This document shows, piece by piece, positions 11,856-44,246 of a stretch of 64,000 nucleotides of DNA. Position numbers and translations under genes: made by a program. This DNA comes from an uncultured Gammaproteobacteria bacterium (GTDB lineage: Bacteria; Patescibacteriota; Microgenomatia; Levybacterales; UBA12049): positions 57,612 to 121,611 of the forward strand of contig CAZERI010000002.1 of assembly GCA_964515545.1 (NCBI GenBank), written 5' to 3'. Within the stretch, counting starts at the first letter, position 1. The number at the start of each line of letters is the position of its first letter. Below the pieces are notes generated by a model, which was not told the DNA's origin, did no database searches, and saw only the letters and a program-made list of their open reading frames with translations.

Positions 11856-12551
11856 CTAGAGGAATGAAGGGATCGACTCAGTGCCAAGACCTGCCTGAGA
11901 GACGTTGAGACATTCCTCTTCTAATTTTTTATAGTGTGTGATGATGAGATATCGTCCTTGACGTTTTACGAGGCCTTTTCGTTCTAGTTTTTTCATCTCA
12001 AGAGAGGTGGTTTCACGGGTAATACCGATCATGGTTGCGATATCTTTGTGGGTGAGAGGGACACGGAGGATGATCTGCTCTCCATCATTCTCTCCCAAAC
12101 CTTTAGCACACATAAGAAGAATAGTGGCAACTTTTGTATAAGCATTACTAAAAGCCATAGACTCTATACGGGCAAGAACGCCATCAAAGCTGATGAGGAG
12201 GCGTTCTGTAAGTTCATAAAAGAGTTCAGGATCTTTCTTGATAAATTCGATAAAAAATTCCTGAGGCGCTTTCCATAATTCAAGGGGAGTGATGGCTTCC
12301 AGATAATAAGATTGATTGGTAGTACCAATGCCGTATGTCAAAGGAAAAAAATCATGTGATTTCAAAATAGCCAGAGTTAATTCTTCGCCATTTTCAGAAA
12401 TGCGAAAGACTCTAATATAGCCTGACTTTATGTAAAAAACACTAGAGGTACTATCGTTGCTCTTGAGGATAAGGGAGCGTTTTTTGTATTGGTACAATTT
12501 AAATTTCTGGAAAAATTTTTCAAATTGTTGGATAAGATAACTGTCAGCCAT
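11856..12551 (-). CDS. Crp/Fnr family transcriptional regulator
   Basis: cNMP-binding beta-barrel region plus a C-terminal HTH (DIATMIGITRETTSLEMKKLERKGLV). Confidence 0.85.
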   Translation of the reverse strand: MADSYLIQQFEKFFQKFKLYQYKKRSLILKSNDSTSSVFYIKSGYIRVFRISENGEELTLAILKSHDFFPLTYGIGTTNQSYYLEAITPLELWKAPQEFFIEFIKKDPELFYELTERLLISFDGVLARIESMAFSNAYTKVATILLMCAKGLGENDGEQIILRVPLTHKDIATMIGITRETTSLEMKKLERKGLVKRQGRYLIITHYKKLEEECLNVSQAGLGTESIPSFL

Positions 12552-35886: not shown

Positions 35887-37437
35887 CTAATTAATCTCAG
35901 CAAGAGATTGTCTTTTCTGGACTACGAAGTTACCAAAATGCTTTTCTTCAAGTATTTTTGATCTGGCATTCTCCTCATCAATTGCTGCTTTGACAAAGTA
36001 GTCAGGAATGCCGGTGGTGGGCTCGATGATGAGATAGTGGAACTCTGGAGGATTATGAGAGGTGGGAAGCTCTCCTAAGTTACCAGTCTGATCTTTACCA
36101 TCCCAGTAAGGAACAAAGCCGTATCTTCTCTGTCCATAGAAATTATACAGATATGCCCAGGTCGTATTAATAAAAAGCGGTTCAGTAACTGTATTGATGC
36201 TAAAGGGCTTTTGATGAGAGGAAGTATAAGTATATTCAAGTATTTTTTGTTCCTCTGTGAGAGTAATTCCCCTCTGGACTGTCAGCGGATTTACTATGTC
36301 TCTTATCCAGGTAAGATTAAGCCATACCTGCGTTATGATGATGCCGAGAATGCCTATGACTAGGAGATATTTTGACGTGATAACTTTAGTGAGAGCGTAG
36401 GAAAAGAGGATAACTACCACAACGAGGGAGGGATAAAAGACAAAAAGGCTTCGGGAGATGCCTGTATCAAAGAGACAAAAAATAAGGAGGTTGGTAAGCC
36501 AGATAACAAGAAAGAGGAGAGGTTTGGTATCAGATTTTGCTCTTTTTCTCAGTGCTAAAAGGAGGAGAAGAGCAAAAAGAACAAGAGGTAAGAGAACAGG
36601 AAGAGACAGCACACTGACAGTAAGAAGCTCATTTACCTTCGCTATCATTGTTTGGAAAGGAGTAAAGATAGACTGAGACGATGAGTGAGGAGAAAGGATA
36701 AAGTGAATGAGGCTTGTCGTTCCTTGGAAGTGATATTTAGCCTCACCGAGAATAATGGTAGAGGAAGTGAGGATAAGACCAAGAACAAAAAGAAAAATAT
36801 CTTTAATTCTGACTCTTATTTTAAAGACTAGAAAATATACAGGAAGAAAAATAAGTAGCAGGATAAAAGCGAGCTGAGACTGGATGACAAGTCCATACAT
36901 GACTCCTGTGAGCAAGGCATTCTTAGGGCTTTGCTGAGAAATATATCTCCAGAGGCAGAGAAGAAGAAAAGGCATACAGATAAGAGATAGTACAGGATTT
37001 GAGAGCCAGCGGGTGGAGAGCTGAAAAAGGGGAGAGAAAGCATAGAGTATGACTGCGATACCAGCTATCTTTCGGCTATGAAATAATTCTTTTGCCAAGA
37101 GATAGGTTATCGGGAGTGTTAGAAAAAATGCTAGAAGGAAAATAGATGCAGTAGGTAAGACTGCCTGGTGGAAAATCCCATAGAGAACTGCCAGGAGGTA
37201 ATACCAGAGTACGCCATGGTGGAGAAAGCGGATATCAGTACTTGGGCCAAGTATTTTGATGTCATGATGCTGCCAGATATTATATGCCTCATAGCCGTCT
37301 CGTGCCTGGTCGTAGTAGAAAAAAAGCTGGTGAGAAAAAGGGATGACAGAGAGGGTAAAAGCGATGAGAAGAGCAATGAATACAACTTTTTCGGGAGTCT
37401 TAGAAAAGTAATGGGTAAGTAAAGTAAGGTATTTCAT
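35887..37437 (-). CDS. Polytopic membrane protein, GT-C-like
   Basis: 516 aa, about 13 TM helices with an ArnT-like topology. Start overlaps the upstream stop (ATGA). Confidence 0.5.
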   Translation of the reverse strand: MKYLTLLTHYFSKTPEKVVFIALLIAFTLSVIPFSHQLFFYYDQARDGYEAYNIWQHHDIKILGPSTDIRFLHHGVLWYYLLAVLYGIFHQAVLPTASIFLLAFFLTLPITYLLAKELFHSRKIAGIAVILYAFSPLFQLSTRWLSNPVLSLICMPFLLLCLWRYISQQSPKNALLTGVMYGLVIQSQLAFILLLIFLPVYFLVFKIRVRIKDIFLFVLGLILTSSTIILGEAKYHFQGTTSLIHFILSPHSSSQSIFTPFQTMIAKVNELLTVSVLSLPVLLPLVLFALLLLLALRKRAKSDTKPLLFLVIWLTNLLIFCLFDTGISRSLFVFYPSLVVVVILFSYALTKVITSKYLLVIGILGIIITQVWLNLTWIRDIVNPLTVQRGITLTEEQKILEYTYTSSHQKPFSINTVTEPLFINTTWAYLYNFYGQRRYGFVPYWDGKDQTGNLGELPTSHNPPEFHYLIIEPTTGIPDYFVKAAIDEENARSKILEEKHFGNFVVQKRQSLAEIN

Positions 37438-37877
37438 CAGTTAAATACCCGCTGATCAGTAAGGACTTTAATTATCTTTCCTCGAGTTCCCAGGACTCTC
37501 CCAAACATTATTCCAGCCAGTATCGCAAAACCGATTGTTTCTACTTCAAAATTATGGGTAACGAAGCCTACGATTTTTCCCCTAAAAATCTCCAAAAGGA
37601 TATAGAGAGCTAAGATGATTATTCCATAAATATCCAGACGGCTGATGACTTTTTTAGCATTTTTATCCCATGAAATATGGTACATCCGTGATGCTACAAT
37701 TCCTATGATCACCCCGACAAGCAGGGCGATGATCCCTAGGTCCAGACGTAAAGCTCCCCGAAAGACATTATAGATAAGTAGGAGAAGTAAGATTCCTGAG
37801 ATGAGGAAATATATCCTTATCATCAAGCGGAGTCTTTTATCAATGTGCTTAACATGAGGACGAAGATCTTTGGGCAT
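37437..37877 (-). CDS. Small integral membrane protein (4 TM)
   Basis: Hydrophobicity only; sits in the operon between the YcnI-like and GT-C-like genes. Confidence 0.45.
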   Translation of the reverse strand: MPKDLRPHVKHIDKRLRLMIRIYFLISGILLLLLIYNVFRGALRLDLGIIALLVGVIIGIVASRMYHISWDKNAKKVISRLDIYGIIILALYILLEIFRGKIVGFVTHNFEVETIGFAILAGIMFGRVLGTRGKIIKVLTDQRVFN

Positions 37878-37942: not shown

Positions 37943-38581
37943 TTACTTCCTTTTCATTACGGTAACAAGTGCTACCACTGATAACGCTAAAGATGCAAAA
38001 GAAAATACCATTGCCTGAGACACCTTTTTATCGGTATCAGAGGATGGAGAAGACAGAGTATTATTCTCTTTGGCAAGATCATTTAGGATCTTTGTCTGAG
38101 AATAAGGGCCCAATCCTTTCTTTTCATTCTCTTCCTGCTTCTCACTTGATATATTTTTCATGGAGTCTGGATTTTGGTCCCATGATATGACTGTCCCATC
38201 CTGGTAAGTCTGGTAGGCTTTCCAGATGAGAGTTGTTTCACTTGCTGGAGCTTGTGCTTGAAAATAGAATTCATCACGCTGCCCCATAGGAATAGATCCG
38301 CCTGTCCACTCAATTTCAGTAACCACTCCCTCACCAGATTTTTTGAGATCGATTGTCCAGCCTGGCTTGACATTGGGAGTTACTGATTTTAAGCCATCGG
38401 GTATGAGTAGACGCAGTCCTGTTGTCGGGTTATCTTTTTCATTGGGAACACCAACAGTAAAGACCTGCCGTACAGCTGCACCCGTTTCATTTGGTTTGAC
38501 GACCACATGGGCAAAGCTAGGCATTACTACGATAAAAAGTGAGAGGACAGCACTAGTAGCGCTTATGATAATTTTTTTCAT
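37943..38581 (-). CDS. YcnI-like (DUF1775) extracytoplasmic copper-binding protein with a C-terminal membrane anchor
   Basis: Signal peptide ...VVMPSFA then a mature N-terminus HVVVKPNETGAAVRQVFTVGVPNEKD, the DUF1775/YcnI hallmark (N-terminal His). S/T-rich linker and a C-terminal TM. ATG at complement 38581 with a GGGGGTG SD; the track uses the upstream GTG at 38590. Confidence 0.6.
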   Translation of the reverse strand: MKKIIISATSAVLSLFIVVMPSFAHVVVKPNETGAAVRQVFTVGVPNEKDNPTTGLRLLIPDGLKSVTPNVKPGWTIDLKKSGEGVVTEIEWTGGSIPMGQRDEFYFQAQAPASETTLIWKAYQTYQDGTVISWDQNPDSMKNISSEKQEENEKKGLGPYSQTKILNDLAKENNTLSSPSSDTDKKVSQAMVFSFASLALSVVALVTVMKRK

Positions 38582-39140
38582 GGTGATCACCCCCTTTCTT
38601 TATTTCTTTTTTCAGAGTCCGCTTATGAACCATAAAATAGACAGCAATACAGATAAGAAGGATACTGCCTCCCAGAACAGCTGGTGAGATGAATGACTTT
38701 GCCGTTTTTTTCTCACCTGATGAGGGCGAAGCATCCTGATCTATTCTAAAATCCCATGAAAGAGCAAAGGGCGTAAAGGAATTGTTATTGCGTGATTTGC
38801 CAATAACCGCAACAGTATAAATATCACGTTTTGGGAAGGTATACGCTGCACTCGCACTGAATACATTAGGCTTATTATCTGTTTTAAAAAGGGGTGCTGA
38901 GTAAATTTTCTTCCCATTCTGAACTACTTCAAAGGTACAATCGCAGTCCTCAGCCCTAAATTTATTAGTTTTGTCTTTGAATTCAAAGAGAAAAGTCGCT
39001 TGTGAGTTAGCGATAGGTTCATCATTAGGATCTACATGCAGGATTGCTCCTATACTACCGTCAGTTTCGAGGGTGTGTGCCTGAACATCCGCTGGAAGTA
39101 AGAAAAGCAGTACTAGTAAAAGGGTAAAAAATATTTTCAT
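38553..39140 (-). CDS. CopC-like secreted protein with an N-terminal His after signal cleavage (candidate His-brace) and a C-terminal TM anchor
   Basis: Signal peptide ...PADVQA then HTLETDGSIGAILHV...ATFLFEFKD, arranged like CopC (H1...P...I.L.F.E). S/P-rich linker, TM, then an HH-rich tail (GGDHHEKNYH). The family assignment is tentative. Confidence 0.4.
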   Translation of the reverse strand: MKIFFTLLLVLLFLLPADVQAHTLETDGSIGAILHVDPNDEPIANSQATFLFEFKDKTNKFRAEDCDCTFEVVQNGKKIYSAPLFKTDNKPNVFSASAAYTFPKRDIYTVAVIGKSRNNNSFTPFALSWDFRIDQDASPSSGEKKTAKSFISPAVLGGSILLICIAVYFMVHKRTLKKEIKKGGDHHEKNYHKRY

Positions 39141-40738
39141 TTAACCTCCAAAGTAAAGTCACTAGTAAGTAGCTTATCACCAGGGTTGAATTCTGCAAAT
39201 GCTTTATAAATTCCTGGTGTAAATGGTCCATAAATACCAATAGGCAGAAAATCTACTGTAGGACCGGTCGTAGCGTTGGGAGGTGGTGGAGTGAGGGTGT
39301 AAGGGTGAACATGAATAAAGTCAAAAGTCTTTTCATTGATCATGGTTAGATGGCCAAAAGAGGAGAGATAGGGTTTGAGATTGGTGACAGGCTTCCCTGT
39401 CTTGGCATCTTTGAAAGTAAAAGTGATAGTCTGTTCACCCCGTGACATCTGAGATGCAGAAAGTACTCCATGAGTATCAACAGAGATAGAATAGGAATCA
39501 AATATTTTTGCTTTATCGATATCTGGTACATCTTTTGATAGAACTGGTGTCTCAGGTACCTCTCCGACAGGCAGGGTAAATCCCACTTGCTGCTCGATTC
39601 CGCCTAGGGGCTGAAATTCAACATATAAATGATATAAGTCATCTTTAGGAAATTGTGTAGTTATAGTAAATCTTCCATCATCATTCTCAGTTGGATGGAT
39701 ATGATTAAAGTACGATAGGTTGCTGCTCACGATAATAAAATGCATCAGCTTTTCATAAACAGTATTAAATAACTTTACCTGATATCCGTTACTTGCATCA
39801 TAAACTGTGAAATAGAGTGTGACATCCTCATTTGGCTCTGGATTGGGGGGGTCGGAAGCAATACTTACGGTATATCTCTTTGTAGGATCGCCGTTCACAC
39901 CAGGGATTTTACCCAGGTCTGTATTTCCGATTGTATTTTGGGAACTCTGATCAAGTGCTCTTTGTGCCAACCTTTTATGGGCAGTATGAATATCAAATGA
40001 GATACTGCCATCAGGAGAGGAGATAAGCGGAGAAATAATAGTAACGTAGAGTATTCCTAAGATAACAGCCATAATTCCCTGGCTAATGCTTATTTTGGGA
40101 AGCGAAATAAATCGTTTAAATAACTTATCAAAGCGGGGTGCTTCAAGAAGAAGAAGGAAAGTAAGAGCAATAAATGTCACGTGAGGTATAACGTCTGAAA
40201 GTACTGAGAAATGTGATCCCAGCATTACTGTATGGACCAGAATGGTGATTCCTGCCAGATAGACAAAGCGGTGCAGTAATTTCCATTTAGCAAATGACAA
40301 TTTCTCGACTGCGTAATCAAAAGAGGTAATAGCAAGGAGAGAAAAAATAAAAAGCCCGATAAAGCCTAGGATGATAGCTAATAGATAGCTTCCTTCCAAG
40401 AAGCTTAGCCCTGAGAATCCGCCTAATTGCCCAAACAGCGAAATCATACTATGAAGGAAACCAAAATAAAATGCCAATACTCCCAAGGCCCGACGTGACT
40501 CCATAAACTGATCGCGGTAGTGAAATGAGCGGAAAGTATAGCAGAAAGGTCCTGCGAGGAGAGAGAAATAGAGAAATACAAGAGATACAAGACCATAATA
40601 CTCGACGAGCTTGGCAGTTTGCGAAATACCTAGTGAGTAACGGGTAACGACCAGCATGTAAATAAGGGAAGAGAGGATGATACCACTGATAAGGATAGAT
40701 GCCCGTAAAGATCGTAAATACGTAGAGATATTACTCAT
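39137..40738 (-). CDS. Ferric-reductase-like transmembrane domain protein (FRD, MsrQ/YedZ-like) fused to two extracytoplasmic His-motif repeat domains
   Basis: 6 TM N-terminal domain with LGVLAFYFGFLHSM and WKLLHRFVYLAGITILVH (H-x12-H in one helix, as in FRD/NOX heme ligation). The C-terminal 300 aa hold two ~110-aa repeats, each with F-x-H-[IV]-H-P (FNHIHP, FIHVHP). ATGA coupling to the downstream gene. Confidence 0.55.
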   Translation of the reverse strand: MSNISTYLRSLRASILISGIILSSLIYMLVVTRYSLGISQTAKLVEYYGLVSLVFLYFSLLAGPFCYTFRSFHYRDQFMESRRALGVLAFYFGFLHSMISLFGQLGGFSGLSFLEGSYLLAIILGFIGLFIFSLLAITSFDYAVEKLSFAKWKLLHRFVYLAGITILVHTVMLGSHFSVLSDVIPHVTFIALTFLLLLEAPRFDKLFKRFISLPKISISQGIMAVILGILYVTIISPLISSPDGSISFDIHTAHKRLAQRALDQSSQNTIGNTDLGKIPGVNGDPTKRYTVSIASDPPNPEPNEDVTLYFTVYDASNGYQVKLFNTVYEKLMHFIIVSSNLSYFNHIHPTENDDGRFTITTQFPKDDLYHLYVEFQPLGGIEQQVGFTLPVGEVPETPVLSKDVPDIDKAKIFDSYSISVDTHGVLSASQMSRGEQTITFTFKDAKTGKPVTNLKPYLSSFGHLTMINEKTFDFIHVHPYTLTPPPPNATTGPTVDFLPIGIYGPFTPGIYKAFAEFNPGDKLLTSDFTLEVK

Positions 40739-40954
40739 AAGTAGAATACTCGTATGGCTCAGGAATAGAGAACCATTCCACTATAATACGTTTTTCCTCT
40801 AAAGAGAAGACTCTAAAGCAGGTAATTCTTACGAAAAAAGCCCCAGAAGGGTTGCGAGAAATGAGTCCCTCGGCGCTTTTTTCGTCCCATCGCGTGATGG
40901 GAAAGCATCATAGGCAACTCCTTCTCCCTTGTGGGGCTTTGGATACCAAAACGA

Positions 40955-41560
40955 TCAGGAAGGATTGGGCGCAGGGTGAGGGAAAGGGTTCCACTTAGGG
41001 AGTCTCAGACTCCTGAGGTGGAATTTCCGCAGTTTCCGCCTAGGTCGTTCGCCTCTGTAGACAAAAACGATCTGACCTCCGAGGAGGTAGTCGTCTTCCT
41101 CGATGACGAAGTTGCTGACGTAGACCATCCCTGACCAGCAGGGGATCTCTCTGCTGCAGGGACAGCGTCCGTACCCTCCACGCATCAGAAGATCGTATGT
41201 CACTCCTGAGAGGGTGAATTTTGCCTCGAAGAGCTCTGCCTCTGTCAGCATGAGCGGGGTAATAGCTACAGGGATGGGCTCACTCTGAGACTTGACAAGG
41301 CTGAAGAACGTTGAGACGAACTTCATGTCCCTGCCTACGAATACAGTGTACGTACTGTCCCCGCTACGACTATAGTGATACTCCACTCGGTGTCCATCCA
41401 CTTCGAGGATGGCGGAGGGGAGGAAGCTCCACATGATACGGACGCTGATAACGCAGGTGATAATGACCGCAGGTGGAAGGATTATCCACCCTACGGGAAG
41501 CCCTGAGATCCACAGGAGAGTGATGCCGGCGGACATGAAGGTAATTCCTTTCCAAGGCAT
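40955..41560 (-). CDS. Hypothetical membrane-anchored protein inside a high-GC islet
   Basis: 201-aa ORF with two N-terminal TM helices. Local GC is about 50% against ~40% flanks. Overlapping ORFs in other frames make the exact gene model uncertain. Confidence 0.4.
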   Translation of the reverse strand: MPWKGITFMSAGITLLWISGLPVGWIILPPAVIITCVISVRIMWSFLPSAILEVDGHRVEYHYSRSGDSTYTVFVGRDMKFVSTFFSLVKSQSEPIPVAITPLMLTEAELFEAKFTLSGVTYDLLMRGGYGRCPCSREIPCWSGMVYVSNFVIEEDDYLLGGQIVFVYRGERPRRKLRKFHLRSLRLPKWNPFPHPAPNPS

Positions 41561-41839
41561 TTGACCTGTCCTTTCTGATTTGCTTTGAAAGAGCGATGGA
41601 CACAGTGTCCAGTCCCCATAGTATACAGGAATGAGGCCTTAAGTTCAAACTATAAGATGTAGGAGGAGAGACAGCAGATAAGCGTCACTTATAGGTAGTT
41701 GTGGTAATGTTTGCCTCAGGTATGGATTTCAGGTAAAATATAGTGCTGGCTAATTGCTTATTGCAAATGGTTAATAGTTTATAAATCAGGTATCCTATTT
41801 TGAACTATTAGCTATACGCTATTTGCTATTAACTAATAT

Positions 41840-41912
41840 GGCCCCATCGTCTAGTGGCCTAGGACACTGGATTCTCATTCCAGTAACCGGGATTCGAATT
41901 CCCGTGGGGTCA
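41840..41912 (+). tRNA. tRNA-Glu (anticodon CTC)
   Basis: Cloverleaf folded by hand. Acceptor GGCCCCA/TGGGGTC, D-arm GTCT-AGTGGCCTA-GGAC, anticodon stem CTGGA/TCCAG with loop TTCTCAT, T-arm CGGGA-TTCGAAT-TCCCG, discriminator A. No encoded CCA in this copy. Confidence 0.85.
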
Positions 41913-41913
41913 C
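41896..41913 (+). repeat. Direct repeat copy 1 (GAATTCCCGTGGGGTCAC), the 3' end of tRNA-Glu
   Basis: Exact 18-nt identity with 42276-42293. Confidence 0.85.
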
Positions 41914-41954
41914 TTCGGCAAGCTCAGTGCAAGCACAAATTAGATACTTATCTT

Positions 41955-42251
41955 ATGTGGTTTGTTTACATGCTTCTTTGTGATGAGAAAACTTTCTATA
42001 TAGGGATTTCTGACGACCTCAAAAATCGACTGTTCCAACATAAAAATAAACTAAATATTTCTACCAAAAAGTTTTCTGATTTTGATTTAGTTTATGCAGA
42101 AAAGTATCAGTCTAAATTCGAAGCTGCAAAGCGGGAAAAGCAGTTAAAAGGATGGTCTCATGCAAAGAAGCAGATGCTAATTGATGGAAAGCTTGGAATA
42201 AATGCTTGTACTGAGTTGGCGAAGGGTCTCGTTAGAGAATTAGAACTTTGA
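41955..42251 (+). CDS. GIY-YIG nuclease family protein (YhbQ/UPF0213-like, ~98 aa)
   Basis: MWFVYMLLCDEKTFYIGISDDLKNRLFQHKNK...FDLVYAEKYQSKFEAAKREKQLKGWSHAKKQ matches the GIY-YIG core (YVYIL.C.DG.LY.G.T.DL..RL..H ... E..A..RE.QIK.WSR.KK). The track ORF is artificially extended 5' through the tRNA. Confidence 0.8.
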   Translation: MWFVYMLLCDEKTFYIGISDDLKNRLFQHKNKLNISTKKFSDFDLVYAEKYQSKFEAAKREKQLKGWSHAKKQMLIDGKLGINACTELAKGLVRELEL

Positions 42252-42755: not shown

Positions 42756-43124
42756 TTATTCGTACTCTTCTTGATTGGCCTCCTCCTTTGTTCTATGGAC
42801 AGTTCCGTCTGGATGTTCCGGAGGCGCATATGCTGTAAAGAGCCTCAATTCCTCATCATCAGTATTTCTAATATTGTGTGTTACTCCTGCCGGTACAAAG
42901 ATGAGATCATGCTCTTTTACTTTTTGAGTCTGGCCATTAAGGATAGCTTCTCCCTCTCCATCTATAACGATGAGTATTTGGTCGACACTGGGATGGACTT
43001 CTTCCCCAATATCTTCTCCTACAGGTATACACATGGTAACGATCTGACTATATTTCCCCGTATAAAGAACTCTCCGATAGTCTGTATTCGCCTTTGCTAA
43101 TTCTTTAATATCTTCTACATACAT
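42756..43124 (-). CDS. Cupin-domain protein
   Basis: G(X)5HXH-like and G(X)5PXG-like cupin motifs (IPVGEDIGEEVHP..DQILIVIDGEG ... LIFVPAGVTHNIRN). A strong SD AAGGAGGTGAAGG lies 5 nt before the ATG at 43124; the track's longer start at 43151 contains this SD. Confidence 0.75.
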   Translation of the reverse strand: MYVEDIKELAKANTDYRRVLYTGKYSQIVTMCIPVGEDIGEEVHPSVDQILIVIDGEGEAILNGQTQKVKEHDLIFVPAGVTHNIRNTDDEELRLFTAYAPPEHPDGTVHRTKEEANQEEYE

Positions 43125-43254
43125 ATCCTTCACCTCCTTATTGAAATACATAAGTAGAATACGCTTAGGAGAGTCTTATTACATTAATTTGAATCATAGA
43201 AATAAGGTGATATAAATCAGTGATTTATTATAAGAACTTACGTATTCTTCGACT

Positions 43255-43605
43255 ATGATCAAACTCTTAAAAGAAGGTCGATATACATTATTAGAGACAA
43301 AAAATCAGACAAAAGTCCTGATACTCGATGAAGCCAAAAAGTTCGCATGGATAAATGTCTCAGATATCGGTGAGATATTAGTCACCACCCATAAAACATT
43401 ACGAACGGATAATTTGTTATCTATTGGGAAGTATAGGCTTTATGATGTTCGGGATGAACCAGAATTAACTGATTTAATTCATCTTGAGTTGCTTGTAGGA
43501 GATGGTATGTGGCAAGGATACTTGTTACCATTAGGGATGCCTACTGATATAAAAAAAAGAGGAAGAGTTATTCCAACAGAAGAGACAATTTCGGTTTCCT
43601 ACTAA
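43255..43605 (+). CDS. Hypothetical protein
   Basis: 116-aa ORF with no recognisable family; its stop overlaps the convergent Crp gene end. Confidence 0.35.
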   Translation: MIKLLKEGRYTLLETKNQTKVLILDEAKKFAWINVSDIGEILVTTHKTLRTDNLLSIGKYRLYDVRDEPELTDLIHLELLVGDGMWQGYLLPLGMPTDIKKRGRVIPTEETISVSY

Positions 43606-44246
43606 GTCTCTCTTTCCAGCTCAACTGTAAGCTTTGCTACGTCTTGGATGATAAGTTGATGTTTTACACTTGTAACTAACTTTTTCTCTTTTAATATCTT
43701 TACTTCGCGACTCACTGTCTCTCTGGTAAGTCCAGACTGTGCTGCTATGTCTTTTTCTGAGATGGTTAGGGTAGCTGGAGAATTTCCTTTTGCAAAGCGA
43801 TTAACATAAATCAGCAGCTCTGTTATAAGCCTTGCGTATGCACTGCCAGACATCAAATAAGTCATGCGTGTTAGGAGGCCGTCAACACCGCTAAAAACTC
43901 TACTTATAAGGTCATAGAGAACATCAGGGTTATTCTTTATAAAGGTTATTACTTCTTCTCTGGGAGCACGCCATAACTCGACATCAGACATCGCTTCATA
44001 AAAATATTTATTTGGAGTTTGGTTAATTGCCCAATTCATAGGGAAGAAGGCAATCGGTTTAAAAACATTAATTACCAATTCATCTCCATTATGTGAGATT
44101 GCGTACTGTTTTACGAACCCCTCTTTCAAGTAAAAAACACCTAAGGGGTCATCATCAGCCCTTACTAAGATTTCTCCTTTTGTATATGTCTGATGCTTAA
44201 AGCGAGTAAAGAAAGTCTCAATCTTTTTAGAGATAACTTCATCCAT
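43602..44246 (-). CDS. Crp/Fnr family transcriptional regulator (second copy)
   Basis: cNMP-binding fold plus C-terminal HTH (DIAAQSGLTRETVSREVKILKEKKLV). Confidence 0.85.
   Translation of the reverse strand: MDEVISKKIETFFTRFKHQTYTKGEILVRADDDPLGVFYLKEGFVKQYAISHNGDELVINVFKPIAFFPMNWAINQTPNKYFYEAMSDVELWRAPREEVITFIKNNPDVLYDLISRVFSGVDGLLTRMTYLMSGSAYARLITELLIYVNRFAKGNSPATLTISEKDIAAQSGLTRETVSREVKILKEKKLVTSVKHQLIIQDVAKLTVELERET

What the first reader, a model, noticed from the sequence alone, without database searches (positions are those of the whole stretch)
37943..40738. Ferric-reductase-like heme membrane domain, CopC-like and YcnI-like proteins in one operon: candidate extracytoplasmic copper reduction and acquisition system
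Three co-oriented minus-strand genes with overlapping stops and starts (ATGA at 39137-39140; 29-nt overlap at 38553-38581). (i) A 533-aa protein whose N-terminal 6-TM domain carries LHRFVYLAGITILVH (His-x12-His within one helix) and FYFGFLHSM, which resembles the heme-ligating helices of the ferric reductase domain (NOX/FRE/MsrQ-YedZ class). It is followed by two tandem ~110-aa extracytoplasmic repeats, each with a conserved F-x-H-[IV]-H-P motif (FNHIHP, FIHVHP). (ii) A 195-aa secreted protein whose predicted mature N-terminus is His (VQA|HTLETDG...), with CopC-like spacing, an S/P-rich linker, a TM anchor and an HH-rich tail. (iii) A YcnI/DUF1775-like protein whose mature N-terminus is also His (SFA|HVVVKP...), with an S/T-rich linker and a TM anchor. 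In Bacillus, YcnI and the CopC-CopD fusion YcnJ are linked to copper import, and N-terminal His is the copper ligand in both families. I do not recall an FRD-type transmembrane electron carrier fused to tandem His-motif domains and partnered with CopC-like and YcnI-like proteins as a described architecture. It suggests quinol-driven Cu(II) to Cu(I) reduction outside the membrane coupled to chaperone hand-off.
Basis: partly seen in the sequence, partly recalled or inferred. Interest (0 to 1): 0.8.

Follow-up and report, generated by a model that had tools for sequence, protein, structure and literature searches.

The report
Membrane metal reductase with copper-binding partners
An ultra-small (CPR) bacterium carries a conserved three-gene set: a heme/flavin membrane protein that can pass electrons out of the cell, fused to two histidine-lined metal-binding domains, plus two surface-tethered copper-chaperone-like proteins. 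It is most likely an undescribed bacterial system for reducing copper (or iron) outside the cell.

Summary
Three overlapping minus-strand genes encode:
- **P1** (533 aa): a ferric-reductase-domain protein fused to two tandem His-motif domains.
- **P2** (195 aa): a secreted, anchored protein whose mature N-terminus is His.
- **P3**: a YcnI/DUF1775 protein that keeps all three Cu(II)-site residues of Bacillus subtilis YcnI.

P1 and P2 are adjacent in 44 of 46 related CPR loci, and P3 follows in 36.

The interpretation needs correcting in four places.
- P1's membrane domain is STEAP/MsrQ-type, with one heme and one flavin; all eight MsrQ cofactor residues are conserved. A cytoplasmic flavin/NAD(P)H donor is therefore more likely than quinol, because CPR genomes lack quinone synthesis.
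- P2 is not a CopC family member by sequence. It is a separate large family (N-terminal His, His14, CxC) with a CrdA/CopC/FetP-like fold.
- The repeats are an unnamed domain with six invariant His. Bacteroidota fuse it to a heavy-metal-binding domain inside heavy-metal efflux operons, but those pumps look divalent-cation type rather than CusA type.
- Six related loci place a ZIP permease beside P1, which keeps ferric reduction alive as a rival.

Best reading (about 0.45): an extracytoplasmic cupric reductase with chaperone hand-off. I found no description of this architecture in the literature.

The parts
39137..40738 (-). P1, 533 aa: 7-TM flavocytochrome-type ferric-reductase-domain protein fused to two extracytoplasmic His-triad beta-sandwich domains
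   Evidence: ORF. More than 120 full-length homologues at 42-66% identity, mostly labelled CPR. AF2 model with mean pLDDT 91.3.
40109..40738 (-). P1 residues 1-210: six-TM ferric-reductase domain of STEAP/MsrQ type. Heme ligands H96 and H169; flavin-site residues R82, R83, L135, S139, W152, H156; outer-face H176.
40034..40087 (-). P1 residues 218-235: seventh TM helix, which carries the chain from the cytoplasmic side to the outside
   Evidence: Helix 218-235 in the AF2 model. It is preceded by a K/R-rich loop (RFDKLFKRF), consistent with the positive-inside rule (sequence).
39941..39991 (-). P1 residues 250-266: extracytoplasmic helix with invariant H251 and near-invariant H254 (FDIHxAHxxLA). 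Candidate metal-docking site next to the outer heme.
   Evidence: H251 is invariant and H254 is at least 90% conserved in 111 sequences. Helix 250-266 in the model, at low pLDDT of 51-65. The position relative to the heme is inferred, not measured.
39545..39883 (-). P1 residues 286-398: His-triad domain, repeat 1 (H333, H346, H348)
39140..39505 (-). P1 residues 412-533: His-triad domain, repeat 2 (H463, H476, H478)
   Evidence: Same evidence as repeat 1. Sub-threshold YtkA PF13115 hit at 14.4 bits on residues 429-455; 9 of 33 family members hit YtkA at E < 1.
38553..39140 (-). P2, 195 aa: signal peptide (39078-39140), beta-sandwich domain with mature N-terminal His22, His35 and Cys66-x-Cys68 (38736-39077), S/P-rich linker, TM anchor (about 38610-38684), short His-containing cytoplasmic tail
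37943..38581 (-). P3, 212 aa from ATG 38581: YcnI/DUF1775 protein. Signal peptide, Cu(II)-site residues H28, E51 and W137 (numbering from GTG 38590), S/T-rich linker, C-terminal TM anchor.
   Evidence: PF07987 at 82.9 bits. Match to the BsYcnI crystal chain 7me6 at E = 7e-17, aligning H28/E51/W137 with His27/Glu50/Trp137 (ligands from PMC8424229). RBS and ATG at 38581.

Best explanation
This is a self-contained, membrane-anchored module that reduces a metal ion on the outside of the cell. Cu(II) is the most likely substrate.

P1 is a STEAP/MsrQ-type flavocytochrome b. A flavin on the cytoplasmic face (pocket R82, R83, W152, H156, S139) takes electrons from a soluble cytoplasmic reductant, such as an NAD(P)H-dependent flavin reductase, and not from quinol. 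It passes them to a single heme b held between H96 (TM3) and H169 (TM5) near the outer face.

A seventh TM helix then places three His clusters outside the cell: a short His helix (H251, H254, together with H176) and two CrdA/CopC-like beta-sandwich domains, each with an invariant His triad.

P2 (N-terminal His, His14, CxC) and P3 (YcnI mono-histidine brace with Glu and Trp) are tethered to the same membrane by C-terminal anchors. They capture Cu(II) and exchange it with P1's His sites, where it is reduced to Cu(I). The Cu(I) is then handed on, possibly to the CxC of P2, to a target not encoded in the window.

Shown here: domain identities, conservation of the cofactor and ligand residues, topology logic, operon conservation, and the heavy-metal context of the tandem domain in other phyla.

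Inferred: heme and flavin occupancy, the electron donor, which metal is reduced, the order of hand-off, and the final destination of the metal.
For: - **Cofactor residues.** All eight residues that bind heme and FMN in E. coli MsrQ (PMC12525009) are identical in P1. The two heme His are present in 111 of 111 family members.
- **Topology.** Seven helices and a K/R-rich TM6-TM7 loop put residues 240-533 outside the cell.
- **Tandem domain.** Six His are invariant from CPR to Firmicutes to Bacteroidota. More than 1000 proteins carry this domain, most of them fused to the heavy-metal-binding domain PF19335. In Bacteroidota locus L055 the gene lies between the adaptor and the pump of a TolC/adaptor/CusA-CzcA-family efflux operon.
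- **P3.** It keeps the His, Glu and Trp of the BsYcnI Cu(II) site.
- **P2.** It has a strictly conserved signal-peptidase site that exposes His1, plus invariant His14 and CxC. Its nearest solved folds are the periplasmic copper proteins CrdA, FetP, FtrA, PmoD and CopC.
- **Operon conservation.** P1-P2 occurs in 44 of 46 loci and P3 follows in 36 of 46.
- **Open question in the field.** Work on the Bacillus Ycn system states that no reductase is known for that pathway (PMC13344008).
Against: - No copper importer (CopD, Ctr or CcoA type) and no cuproenzyme is encoded in the window or recurrently in related loci, so the fate of Cu(I) is unknown.
- The only permease that recurs is ZIP, in 6 of 46 loci. 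ZIP carries divalent ions and pairs with FRD ferric reductases in plants.
- The RND pump next to the Bacteroidota tandem-domain gene lacks the CusA Met triad (N, N and H instead of M573, M623 and M672). Its adaptor scores closer to CzcB/IhpB than to CusB. The tandem domain may therefore bind divalent metals in general rather than copper.
- The beta-sandwich fold matches are generic: complement MG domains score the same Z as CrdA, and Foldseek E-values are only about 1e-3.
- P2 has no CopC Pfam hit.
- CPR bacteria are generally thought to lack heme synthesis and respiratory chains, so heme would have to be scavenged.
- I could not obtain model coordinates, so the clustering of the His residues is not verified.
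Confidence: 0.45

Rival explanations
1. Reductive iron uptake. P1 is a ferric reductase that turns Fe(III) or ferric chelates into Fe(II) at the cell surface. A ZIP-type or other divalent-metal permease then imports the Fe(II), as in the plant FRO2/IRT1 pair. P2 and P3 are copper-containing or metal-shuttling accessory proteins, like P19/FetP/FtrA in bacterial iron-uptake systems.
For: The FRD family is best known for ferric reduction. MsrQ-like genes clustered with the ferrous transporter VIT1 have been proposed to be assimilatory iron reductases (PMC8238504). A ZIP permease (PF02535, 145 bits) lies on the same strand next to the cassette in 6 of 46 loci, and in 4 of them the gene directly precedes P1, with a 5-318-nt gap. 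P2 and the P1 repeats resemble FetP, FtrA-P19, Tp34 and HftA, which are copper/iron proteins of iron-uptake systems. The Bacteroidota context points to divalent metals.
Against: YcnI/DUF1775 is so far known only as a Cu(II) binder in a copper-regulated uptake operon (PMC8424229, PMC12154828), and P3 keeps the complete Cu(II) site. N-terminal His-brace sites are copper sites in every characterised case. ZIP is absent from 40 of 46 loci and from this window. No Fur box, siderophore gene or Ftr1/EfeU gene was seen.
Confidence: 0.2
2. Copper-dependent extracytoplasmic oxidoreductase. The two His triads of P1 hold permanent copper cofactors that receive electrons from the heme and reduce an external acceptor: O2, superoxide, peroxide or another oxidant. 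This would give a fermentative cell without a respiratory chain an electron sink or an oxidant defence. P2, P3 and the PKD protein found in related loci are the chaperones that load these sites, or are themselves His-brace redox clients.
For: It explains why the cassette needs no metal permease in 40 of 46 loci. Three-His sites on beta-sandwiches are typical catalytic or type-2 copper sites (established knowledge). Ni-superoxide dismutase and its maturation peptidase lie within about 3-5 kb (gene start to gene start) in 9 of 46 loci. Up to three membrane-tethered proteins with an N-terminal His accompany P1.
Confidence: 0.17
3. Metal buffering or resistance at the cell surface. The His-rich domains and anchored chaperone-like proteins sequester excess Cu, Zn or Ni outside the membrane, and the FRD domain has only an accessory or regulatory role.
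For: Relatives of the tandem domain sit in heavy-metal efflux operons. The closest solved fold, CrdA, is a copper-resistance determinant. His-rich tails occur in the relatives.
Against: Strict conservation of the heme and flavin residues (111 of 111 for the heme His) argues that electron transfer is the core function. Reducing Cu(II) to the more toxic Cu(I) outside the cell would not protect it. No efflux pump is linked in CPR loci.
Confidence: 0.08
4. MsrPQ-like repair system: P1 supplies electrons to an extracytoplasmic protein-repair enzyme.
For: The best NCBIfam hit of the TM domain is MsrQ, and all MsrQ cofactor residues are conserved.
Against: The score of 53.9 bits is far below the equivalog cut-off of 130. 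No MsrP or molybdoenzyme gene is in the window or recurrent in the 46 loci. The fused domains and the partner proteins are metal-binding types.
Confidence: 0.02

Closest known systems
STEAP metalloreductases (STEAP1-4, eukaryotes)
   Different: STEAP2-4 carry a cytoplasmic F420H2:NADP+-oxidoreductase-like NADPH domain and have no extracellular metal-binding domains. P1 has no fused dehydrogenase, and has a seventh TM helix plus two external His-triad domains.
E. coli MsrQ (YedZ), partner of MsrP
   Same: Same six-TM ferric-reductase domain. All eight heme and FMN residues are identical (H91, H164, R77, R78, L131, S135, W147, H151 match H96, H169, R82, R83, L135, S139, W152, H156). By analogy the electrons come from a cytosolic flavin reductase.
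   Different: 27% identity. Below the NCBIfam equivalog cut-off (53.9 versus 130 bits). No MsrP partner. P1 has about 320 extra extracytoplasmic residues.
Bacillus subtilis YcnKJI copper-uptake system
   Same: P3 is a YcnI homologue with the same His/Glu/Trp Cu(II) site and the same C-terminal membrane anchor. It partners with other surface proteins that have an N-terminal His. YcnJ ends in a YtkA-like domain, to which the P1 repeats show a faint sequence link.
   Different: No CopD permease, no true CopC domain and no YcnK regulator here. The Bacillus system has no known reductase (PMC13344008), whereas here a transmembrane electron carrier is the central component.
Fungal and plant surface reductase-plus-permease pairs (Fre1/Ctr1, FRO2/IRT1)
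   Same: An FRD-family reductase acts outside the membrane ahead of metal import. In 6 of 46 related loci a ZIP permease (the IRT1 family) sits next to P1.
   Different: Those reductases are NOX-type, with two hemes and fused FAD/NADPH domains. No permease is present in this window. This comparison rests on established knowledge and was not tested here.
Bacterial cupric reductase candidates CcoG and CrpH
   Same: Membrane proteins proposed to reduce Cu(II) for delivery to cuproenzymes. CrpH is proposed to use hemes in the membrane and to act in the periplasm (PMC13038864).
   Different: Unrelated folds: CcoG is an Fe-S protein acting on the cytoplasmic side, and CrpH is a PepSY_TM protein. Both serve heme-copper oxidases, which Microgenomates-type CPR are not known to have.
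H. pylori CrdA and the CopC, FetP, P19 and PmoD periplasmic copper proteins
   Different: No significant sequence similarity (no PF04234 hit, 12-15% identity). The ligand sets differ (His1, His14 and CxC in P2; His triads in P1). The fold is generic, and non-metal Ig-like domains score similarly.

Membership tests
Ferric reductase domain superfamily (PF01794), MsrQ/STEAP single-heme branch | Profile match above the curated threshold | tested here: met
   38.7 bits against a cut-off of 28 on residues 49-164; hit in 33 of 33 relatives.
Ferric reductase domain superfamily (PF01794), MsrQ/STEAP single-heme branch | Axial heme His pair on TM3 and TM5 (MsrQ H91 and H164) | tested here: met
   H96 and H169 are present in 111 of 111 sequences.
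Ferric reductase domain superfamily (PF01794), MsrQ/STEAP single-heme branch | Inner-face flavin pocket (MsrQ R77, R78, L131, S135, W147, H151) | tested here: met
   R82, R83, L135, S139, W152 and H156 are identical in P1 and 86-95% conserved, except L135, which is Leu in 63 and Met in 43 of 111. H156 is Gln, as in STEAP, in 5 sequences.
Ferric reductase domain superfamily (PF01794), MsrQ/STEAP single-heme branch | Six-TM fold like STEAP or NOX | tested here: met
Ferric reductase domain superfamily (PF01794), MsrQ/STEAP single-heme branch | Actual heme b and flavin binding, and transmembrane electron transfer | not testable with these tools
   Needs spectroscopy on expressed protein.
MsrQ proper (MsrPQ system) | Equivalog-level score and an MsrP molybdoenzyme partner | tested here: not met
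   53.9 bits against a cut-off of 130. No MsrP-type gene in the window or recurrent in the 46 loci.
NOX/FRE-type reductases | Second His pair for a second heme, and fused FAD/NAD(P)H-binding domains | tested here: not met
   Only one conserved His on TM3. No FAD_binding or NAD_binding Pfam hit.
YcnI / DUF1775 (PF07987) | Profile match above threshold | tested here: met
   82.9 bits against a cut-off of 25. E = 7e-17 to the BsYcnI crystal chain 7me6.
YcnI / DUF1775 (PF07987) | Mono-histidine-brace Cu(II) site: N-terminal His27, Glu50, Trp137 | tested here: met
   H28, E51 and W137 align exactly. A|H is present in 37 of 37 homologues. Cleavage itself is inferred from the -3/-1 rule.
YcnI / DUF1775 (PF07987) | Genomic partnership with a CopC-CopD importer (YcnJ) | tested here: not met
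   No CopC or CopD hit on the P1-P2-P3 operon proteins or their immediate neighbours, or in recurrent neighbour families of the 46 loci.
CopC (PF04234) | Profile match | tested here: not met
   No hit for P2 at E <= 1. No PDB sequence match.
CopC (PF04234) | Mature N-terminal His as Cu(II) ligand | tested here: met
   His at domain position 1 in 146 of 148 representatives, with an AxA-type cleavage site.
CopC (PF04234) | CopC-type beta-sandwich fold | tested here: inconclusive
YtkA-like (PF13115; CtaK and the YcnJ C-terminal domain) | Profile match above threshold on the P1 repeats | tested here: not met
   14.4 bits against a cut-off of 25.9 in the window protein. 9 of 33 relatives hit at E < 1, best 3.6e-4. 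Two relatives carry a precomputed PF13115 hit. At most a remote relationship.
Unnamed tandem His-triad domain (this work; HMBD-fused in Bacteroidota) | Two homologous domains of about 110 aa, each with H...HxHP; six invariant His | tested here: met
   hhalign between the repeats gives E = 5e-12. Six His are invariant in the cross-phylum alignment A4. 1017 proteins at E <= 1e-3.

The most novel reading that the evidence does not exclude
P1 is the first example of a new class of bacterial surface redox enzyme. A MsrQ/STEAP-type flavocytochrome feeds cytoplasmic electrons to copper centres held by the two His triads. These centres, or the tethered His-brace proteins P2, P3 and the PKD protein acting as clients, then reduce or activate an external substrate. 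That substrate could be O2 or reactive oxygen species, giving an electron sink and oxidant defence for a cell with no respiratory chain. It could even be LPMO-like oxidative chemistry on the host cell envelope during episymbiosis.
Probability: 0.15. Interest if true: 0.85.

Novelty: new variant of a known kind. Interest (0 to 1): 0.62.

Why it matters
Three reasons.

1. How bacteria reduce Cu(II) outside the cytoplasm is an open question. The Bacillus YcnI/YcnJ field states explicitly that no reductase is known for that pathway (PMC13344008). CcoG and CrpH are the only bacterial candidates, and both serve respiratory oxidases. A YcnI protein in a fixed operon with a transmembrane electron carrier makes the question directly testable, and suggests where to look in other bacteria.

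2. CPR/Patescibacteria are thought to lack respiratory chains, quinones and, mostly, heme synthesis. A strictly conserved heme/flavin transmembrane electron conduit, found in more than 120 protein clusters and 46 species-level genomes, means these cells move electrons to their surface for some purpose. That bears on how they cope with oxygen and obtain metals from their hosts.

3. The analysis defines two sizeable protein families that have no Pfam model. One is the tandem His-triad domain (more than 1000 proteins, mostly HMBD fusions in Bacteroidota metal-efflux operons). The other is the P2 family (about 1500 clusters at 50% identity). Both have clear candidate metal ligands.

Tried and rejected
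- **CopC membership of P2.** Pfam and NCBIfam at E <= 1, and PDB sequence search, found nothing. Rejected as a family assignment and kept only as a fold resemblance.
- **P2 as a third copy of the P1 repeat.** hhalign of P2 against repeats 1 and 2 gave 43% and 0.4% probability over 21 and 8 columns. Rejected.
- **YtkA assignment of the repeats.** Sub-threshold. Left as a remote possibility.
- **Copper-specific reading of the Bacteroidota context.** I first read L055 as a Cus operon. Aligning its RND pump to E. coli CusA showed the Met triad replaced by N, N and H and extra acidic residues in TM4, and the adaptor scores nearer CzcB/IhpB. It is therefore only a 'heavy-metal, probably divalent' context.
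- **Anoxybacillus neighbour as CopY.** The repressor's best NCBIfam hit is CopY/TcrY, but at 46.8 bits against a cut-off of 122, and it lacks the C-terminal Cys motif. Not used as copper evidence.
- **Geometry of the His clusters.** Model coordinates are not exposed to the scripting tool. The strand register could not be fixed from DSSP alone, so I make no claim about distances.
- **afdb50 fold search.** The library was unavailable.
- **P4 (37437-37877) and the two PMT_2 genes downstream as part of the system.** P4 is not found near the cassette in any related locus. A PMT_2 relative lies upstream in only 3 loci. Treated as unrelated neighbours.
- **The 1.1-kb stretch upstream of P1.** Rfam at E <= 1 found nothing except the tRNA.
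- **Literature.** No paper combines DUF1775 with ferric reductase. The only paper combining YcnI with Patescibacteria looks unrelated by title and abstract; I did not read it.

Full report
**1.

The three minus-strand ORFs exist as described: 39137-40738 (P1, 533 aa), 38553-39140 (P2, 195 aa) and 37943-38590 (P3). P1's stop and P2's start share ATGA at 39137-39140. P3 most likely starts at ATG 38581, 8 nt after an AAAGGGGG ribosome-binding site, which gives the 29-nt overlap with P2. A T-rich hairpin and a -10-like TATTATAGT precede P1 (by eye), so P1 probably opens the transcription unit. The window has about 40% G+C, many GT-C/PMT_2-type membrane glycosyltransferases and no respiratory genes. 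The closest relatives of all three proteins come from Microgenomates-type CPR/Patescibacteria genomes such as Levyibacteriota, Woykebacteria, Curtissbacteria and Daviesbacteria.

**2. The P1 membrane domain**

- Pfam Ferric_reduct scores 38.7 bits (cut-off 28) on residues 49-164, and is found in 33 of 33 relatives.
- The best NCBIfam hit is MsrQ, at 53.9 bits over residues 8-208, well below the equivalog cut-off of 130.
- An AlphaFold2 model built on 111 sequences has mean pLDDT 91.3 and shows seven long helices.

The recent E. coli MsrQ study assigns one heme b to His91 and His164, and one FMN to a pocket formed by Arg77, Arg78, Leu131, Ser135, Trp147 and His151. It also shows that ubiquinone cannot be the electron donor (PMC12525009). 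I added the E. coli sequence to the family alignment. The sequence was recalled from memory, and all eight numbered residues have the residue type the paper gives. All eight positions are identical in P1: R82, R83, H96, L135, S139, W152, H156 and H169. The two heme ligands are present in 111 of 111 family members. H156 is replaced by Gln, the STEAP residue, in five.

Only one His is conserved on TM3, so a NOX-type second heme has no partner. P1 is therefore a single-heme, single-flavin carrier of MsrQ/STEAP type. Sampled CPR genomes lack quinone biosynthesis and most of the electron-transport chain (PMC8407418). For that reason a cytoplasmic flavin/NAD(P)H donor is more plausible than quinol. 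This step is inferred.

**3. P1 topology and external part**

With R82 and R83 on the inner face and H96 and H169 toward the outer face, TM6 ends inside the cell. A K/R-rich loop follows, and helix 218-235 takes the chain out. Outside the cell come:

- a helix (residues 250-266) carrying invariant H251 and near-invariant H254, with H176 just beyond the outer end of TM5;
- two beta-sandwich domains (about residues 286-398 and 412-533).

**4. The tandem domain elsewhere**

A scan of one genome per species found the tandem domain, without the FRD, in Anoxybacillus tepidamans and in Bacteroidota.

- The Anoxybacillus protein is a lipoprotein with a His/Met-rich N-terminus, next to a BlaI/CopY-family repressor and an M56 peptidase.
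- The Bacteroidota proteins are lipoproteins that fuse a heavy-metal-binding domain (PF19335, 40.9 bits) to the tandem domain and end in His-rich tails. In L055 the gene lies between the adaptor and the pump of a TolC/adaptor/CusA-CzcA-family RND operon (TIGR00914 at 817 bits, cut-off 701).
- A profile search found 1017 proteins, most of them with this HMBD fusion.
- All six His are invariant across the three phyla.

This ties the domain firmly to heavy-metal handling. It does not tie it to copper. The L055 pump has N, N and H where CusA has the Cu(I)/Ag(I) triad M573, M623 and M672. It also carries extra acidic residues in TM4, and its adaptor scores closer to CzcB/IhpB than to CusB. The conservative reading is a His-triad site for divalent transition metals.

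**5. P2**

P2 has no Pfam, NCBIfam or PDB sequence match, so it is not a CopC family member. It belongs to a large family of its own: 1546 cluster representatives at E <= 1e-3. In 148 representatives the domain starts at a median residue 25.

| Feature (domain numbering) | Conservation |
|---|---|
| His at position 1 | 146 of 148 |
| Residue at -1 (in the 146 that start with His) | Ala 143, Gly 3 |
| Residue at -3 | A, V, I, T, S or L |
| His14 | 148 of 148 |
| Asp19 | 147 of 148 |
| Cys45-x-Cys47 | 148 of 148 |

This is the pattern expected if signal peptidase exposes His1 as a metal ligand. SignalP itself was not available.

**6. P3**

P3 scores 82.9 bits on DUF1775 and E = 7e-17 against the B. 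subtilis YcnI crystal chain. H28, E51 and W137 align to His27, Glu50 and Trp137, the mono-histidine-brace Cu(II) site. All 37 homologues in related loci read A|H. This is the strongest copper-specific evidence in the operon.

**7. Conservation and accessory genes**

In 46 non-redundant CPR loci, the neighbours of P1 are as follows.

| Neighbour | Loci (of 46) | Note |
|---|---|---|
| P2 directly downstream | 44 | |
| DUF1775 protein downstream | 36 | |
| Anchored PKD-domain protein, about 290 aa | 27-28 | Absent from this window; mature N-terminus often also His |
| Ni-SOD with its peptidase | 9 | About 3-5 kb away (gene start to gene start) |
| ZIP-family permease (PF02535, 145 bits) | 6 | Same strand; the gene directly precedes P1 in four (5-318-nt gap) |

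No CopD, Ctr, CopA, CopZ, MsrP or cuproenzyme gene recurs. The ZIP link echoes the plant FRO2/IRT1 pair. It is the main reason to keep ferric reduction as a serious rival.

**8. Mechanism and ranking**

The parts fit a STEAP-like extracytoplasmic metalloreductase. Electrons would pass from a cytoplasmic reductant to the flavin, then to the heme, then to a metal bound at external His sites. Tethered His-brace proteins would deliver Cu(II) or accept the product.

| Reading | Probability |
|---|---|
| Cupric reduction with chaperone hand-off | about 0.45 |
| Ferric reduction for Fe(II) uptake | about 0.20 |
| His triads as permanent copper cofactors of a surface oxidoreductase (explains the missing permease and the Ni-SOD neighbourhood) | about 0.17 |
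| Passive metal buffering | about 0.08 |
| MsrPQ-like repair | about 0.02 |

**9. Comparison with known systems and novelty**

The nearest systems are:

- STEAP (fold and logic);
- MsrQ (cofactor residues);
- the Bacillus YcnKJI system (YcnI and N-terminal His partners, but with CopD and no reductase; PMC13344008);
- fungal and plant FRD-plus-permease pairs;
- the bacterial cupric reductase candidates CcoG and CrpH, which have unrelated folds (PMC13038864).

Full-text searches found no paper linking DUF1775 to a ferric-reductase domain, and none that by title links CPR to YcnI. The library does not cover all journals. I class the system as a new variant of a known kind, namely transmembrane metalloreductases. 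It brings two unannotated metal-binding families and sits in an unexpected host lineage.

**10. Limits**

Nothing here shows cofactor or metal binding. Metal specificity is unresolved. The electron donor and the destination of the reduced metal are unknown.

Noticed in passing
window 40739-41839: About 1.1 kb between P1 and tRNA-Glu has slightly higher G+C (0.45) and only overlapping, family-less ORFs (for example 40955-41560, 201 aa, with no homologue in any related locus). A hairpin followed by a T-run at about 40845-40890 on the minus strand precedes the P1 promoter region. Rfam found nothing at E <= 1. It could be an unannotated RNA or an orphan gene.
   Followed up: partly
window 41823-42251 (+) and 41840-41913 (+): The listed 142-aa ORF with a GIY-YIG nuclease domain (60 bits) overlaps tRNA-Glu(CUC). 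The real GIY-YIG gene probably starts at an internal Met just after the tRNA.
   Followed up: no
related loci, e.g. L001 5120-6004, L015 12196-13224, L003 8087-9019: A fourth protein family travels with the cassette in 27-28 of 46 CPR loci but is absent from this window. It is about 290 aa, with a signal peptide, PKD domains (PF18911) and a C-terminal TM anchor. Its mature N-terminus is often again His (for example VSA|HGAGPPF), but Asn in some members.
   Followed up: partly
related loci L011, L014, L019, L024, L036, L046: A ZIP-family metal permease (PF02535) lies on the same strand next to the cassette. In four loci the gene directly precedes P1 (5-318-nt gap); in L036 it is about 0.9 kb upstream and in L046 it is downstream of P3. 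It is the only recurrent transporter.
   Followed up: partly
related loci L001, L006, L020, L023, L026, L038, L044, L045, L046: Nickel superoxide dismutase (PF09055) and its maturation peptidase lie about 3-5 kb (gene start to gene start) from the cassette in 9 of 46 loci. This hints at a metal or oxidative-stress gene neighbourhood in CPR genomes.
   Followed up: no
proteins P0261, P0325, P0370, P0139 (P2 family): Longer P2 variants (260-300 aa) add a second TM helix and a tail with a conserved Cys-Cys motif (HPCC, LPCC or NCC). The tail ends in KSPP or RSPP followed by a short, variable terminal stretch. This may be a further metal site.
   Followed up: no
L055 10589-13705 (Bacteroidota RND pump): This CusA/CzcA-family pump lacks the CusA Met triad (N, N and H) and has an acidic TM4 motif, AIGELVDDAIVDVEN. 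The widespread Bacteroidota operons that carry the HMBD-plus-tandem-domain lipoprotein may export a divalent metal rather than Cu(I)/Ag(I).
   Followed up: partly
window 37437-37877 (-): A 146-aa membrane protein lies 66 nt downstream of P3, and its stop overlaps the start of the next (PMT_2) gene. It has only a weak HlyIII hit (21 bits) and is not found near the cassette in other genomes. It may still be co-transcribed here.
   Followed up: partly
window 42756-44246 and 11856-12551: A cupin protein (a homologue at E = 1e-41 lies about 3.7 kb from the cassette in L045) sits close to a Crp/Fnr-type regulator (43602-44246). A second Crp/Fnr regulator is at 11856-12551.
   Followed up: no
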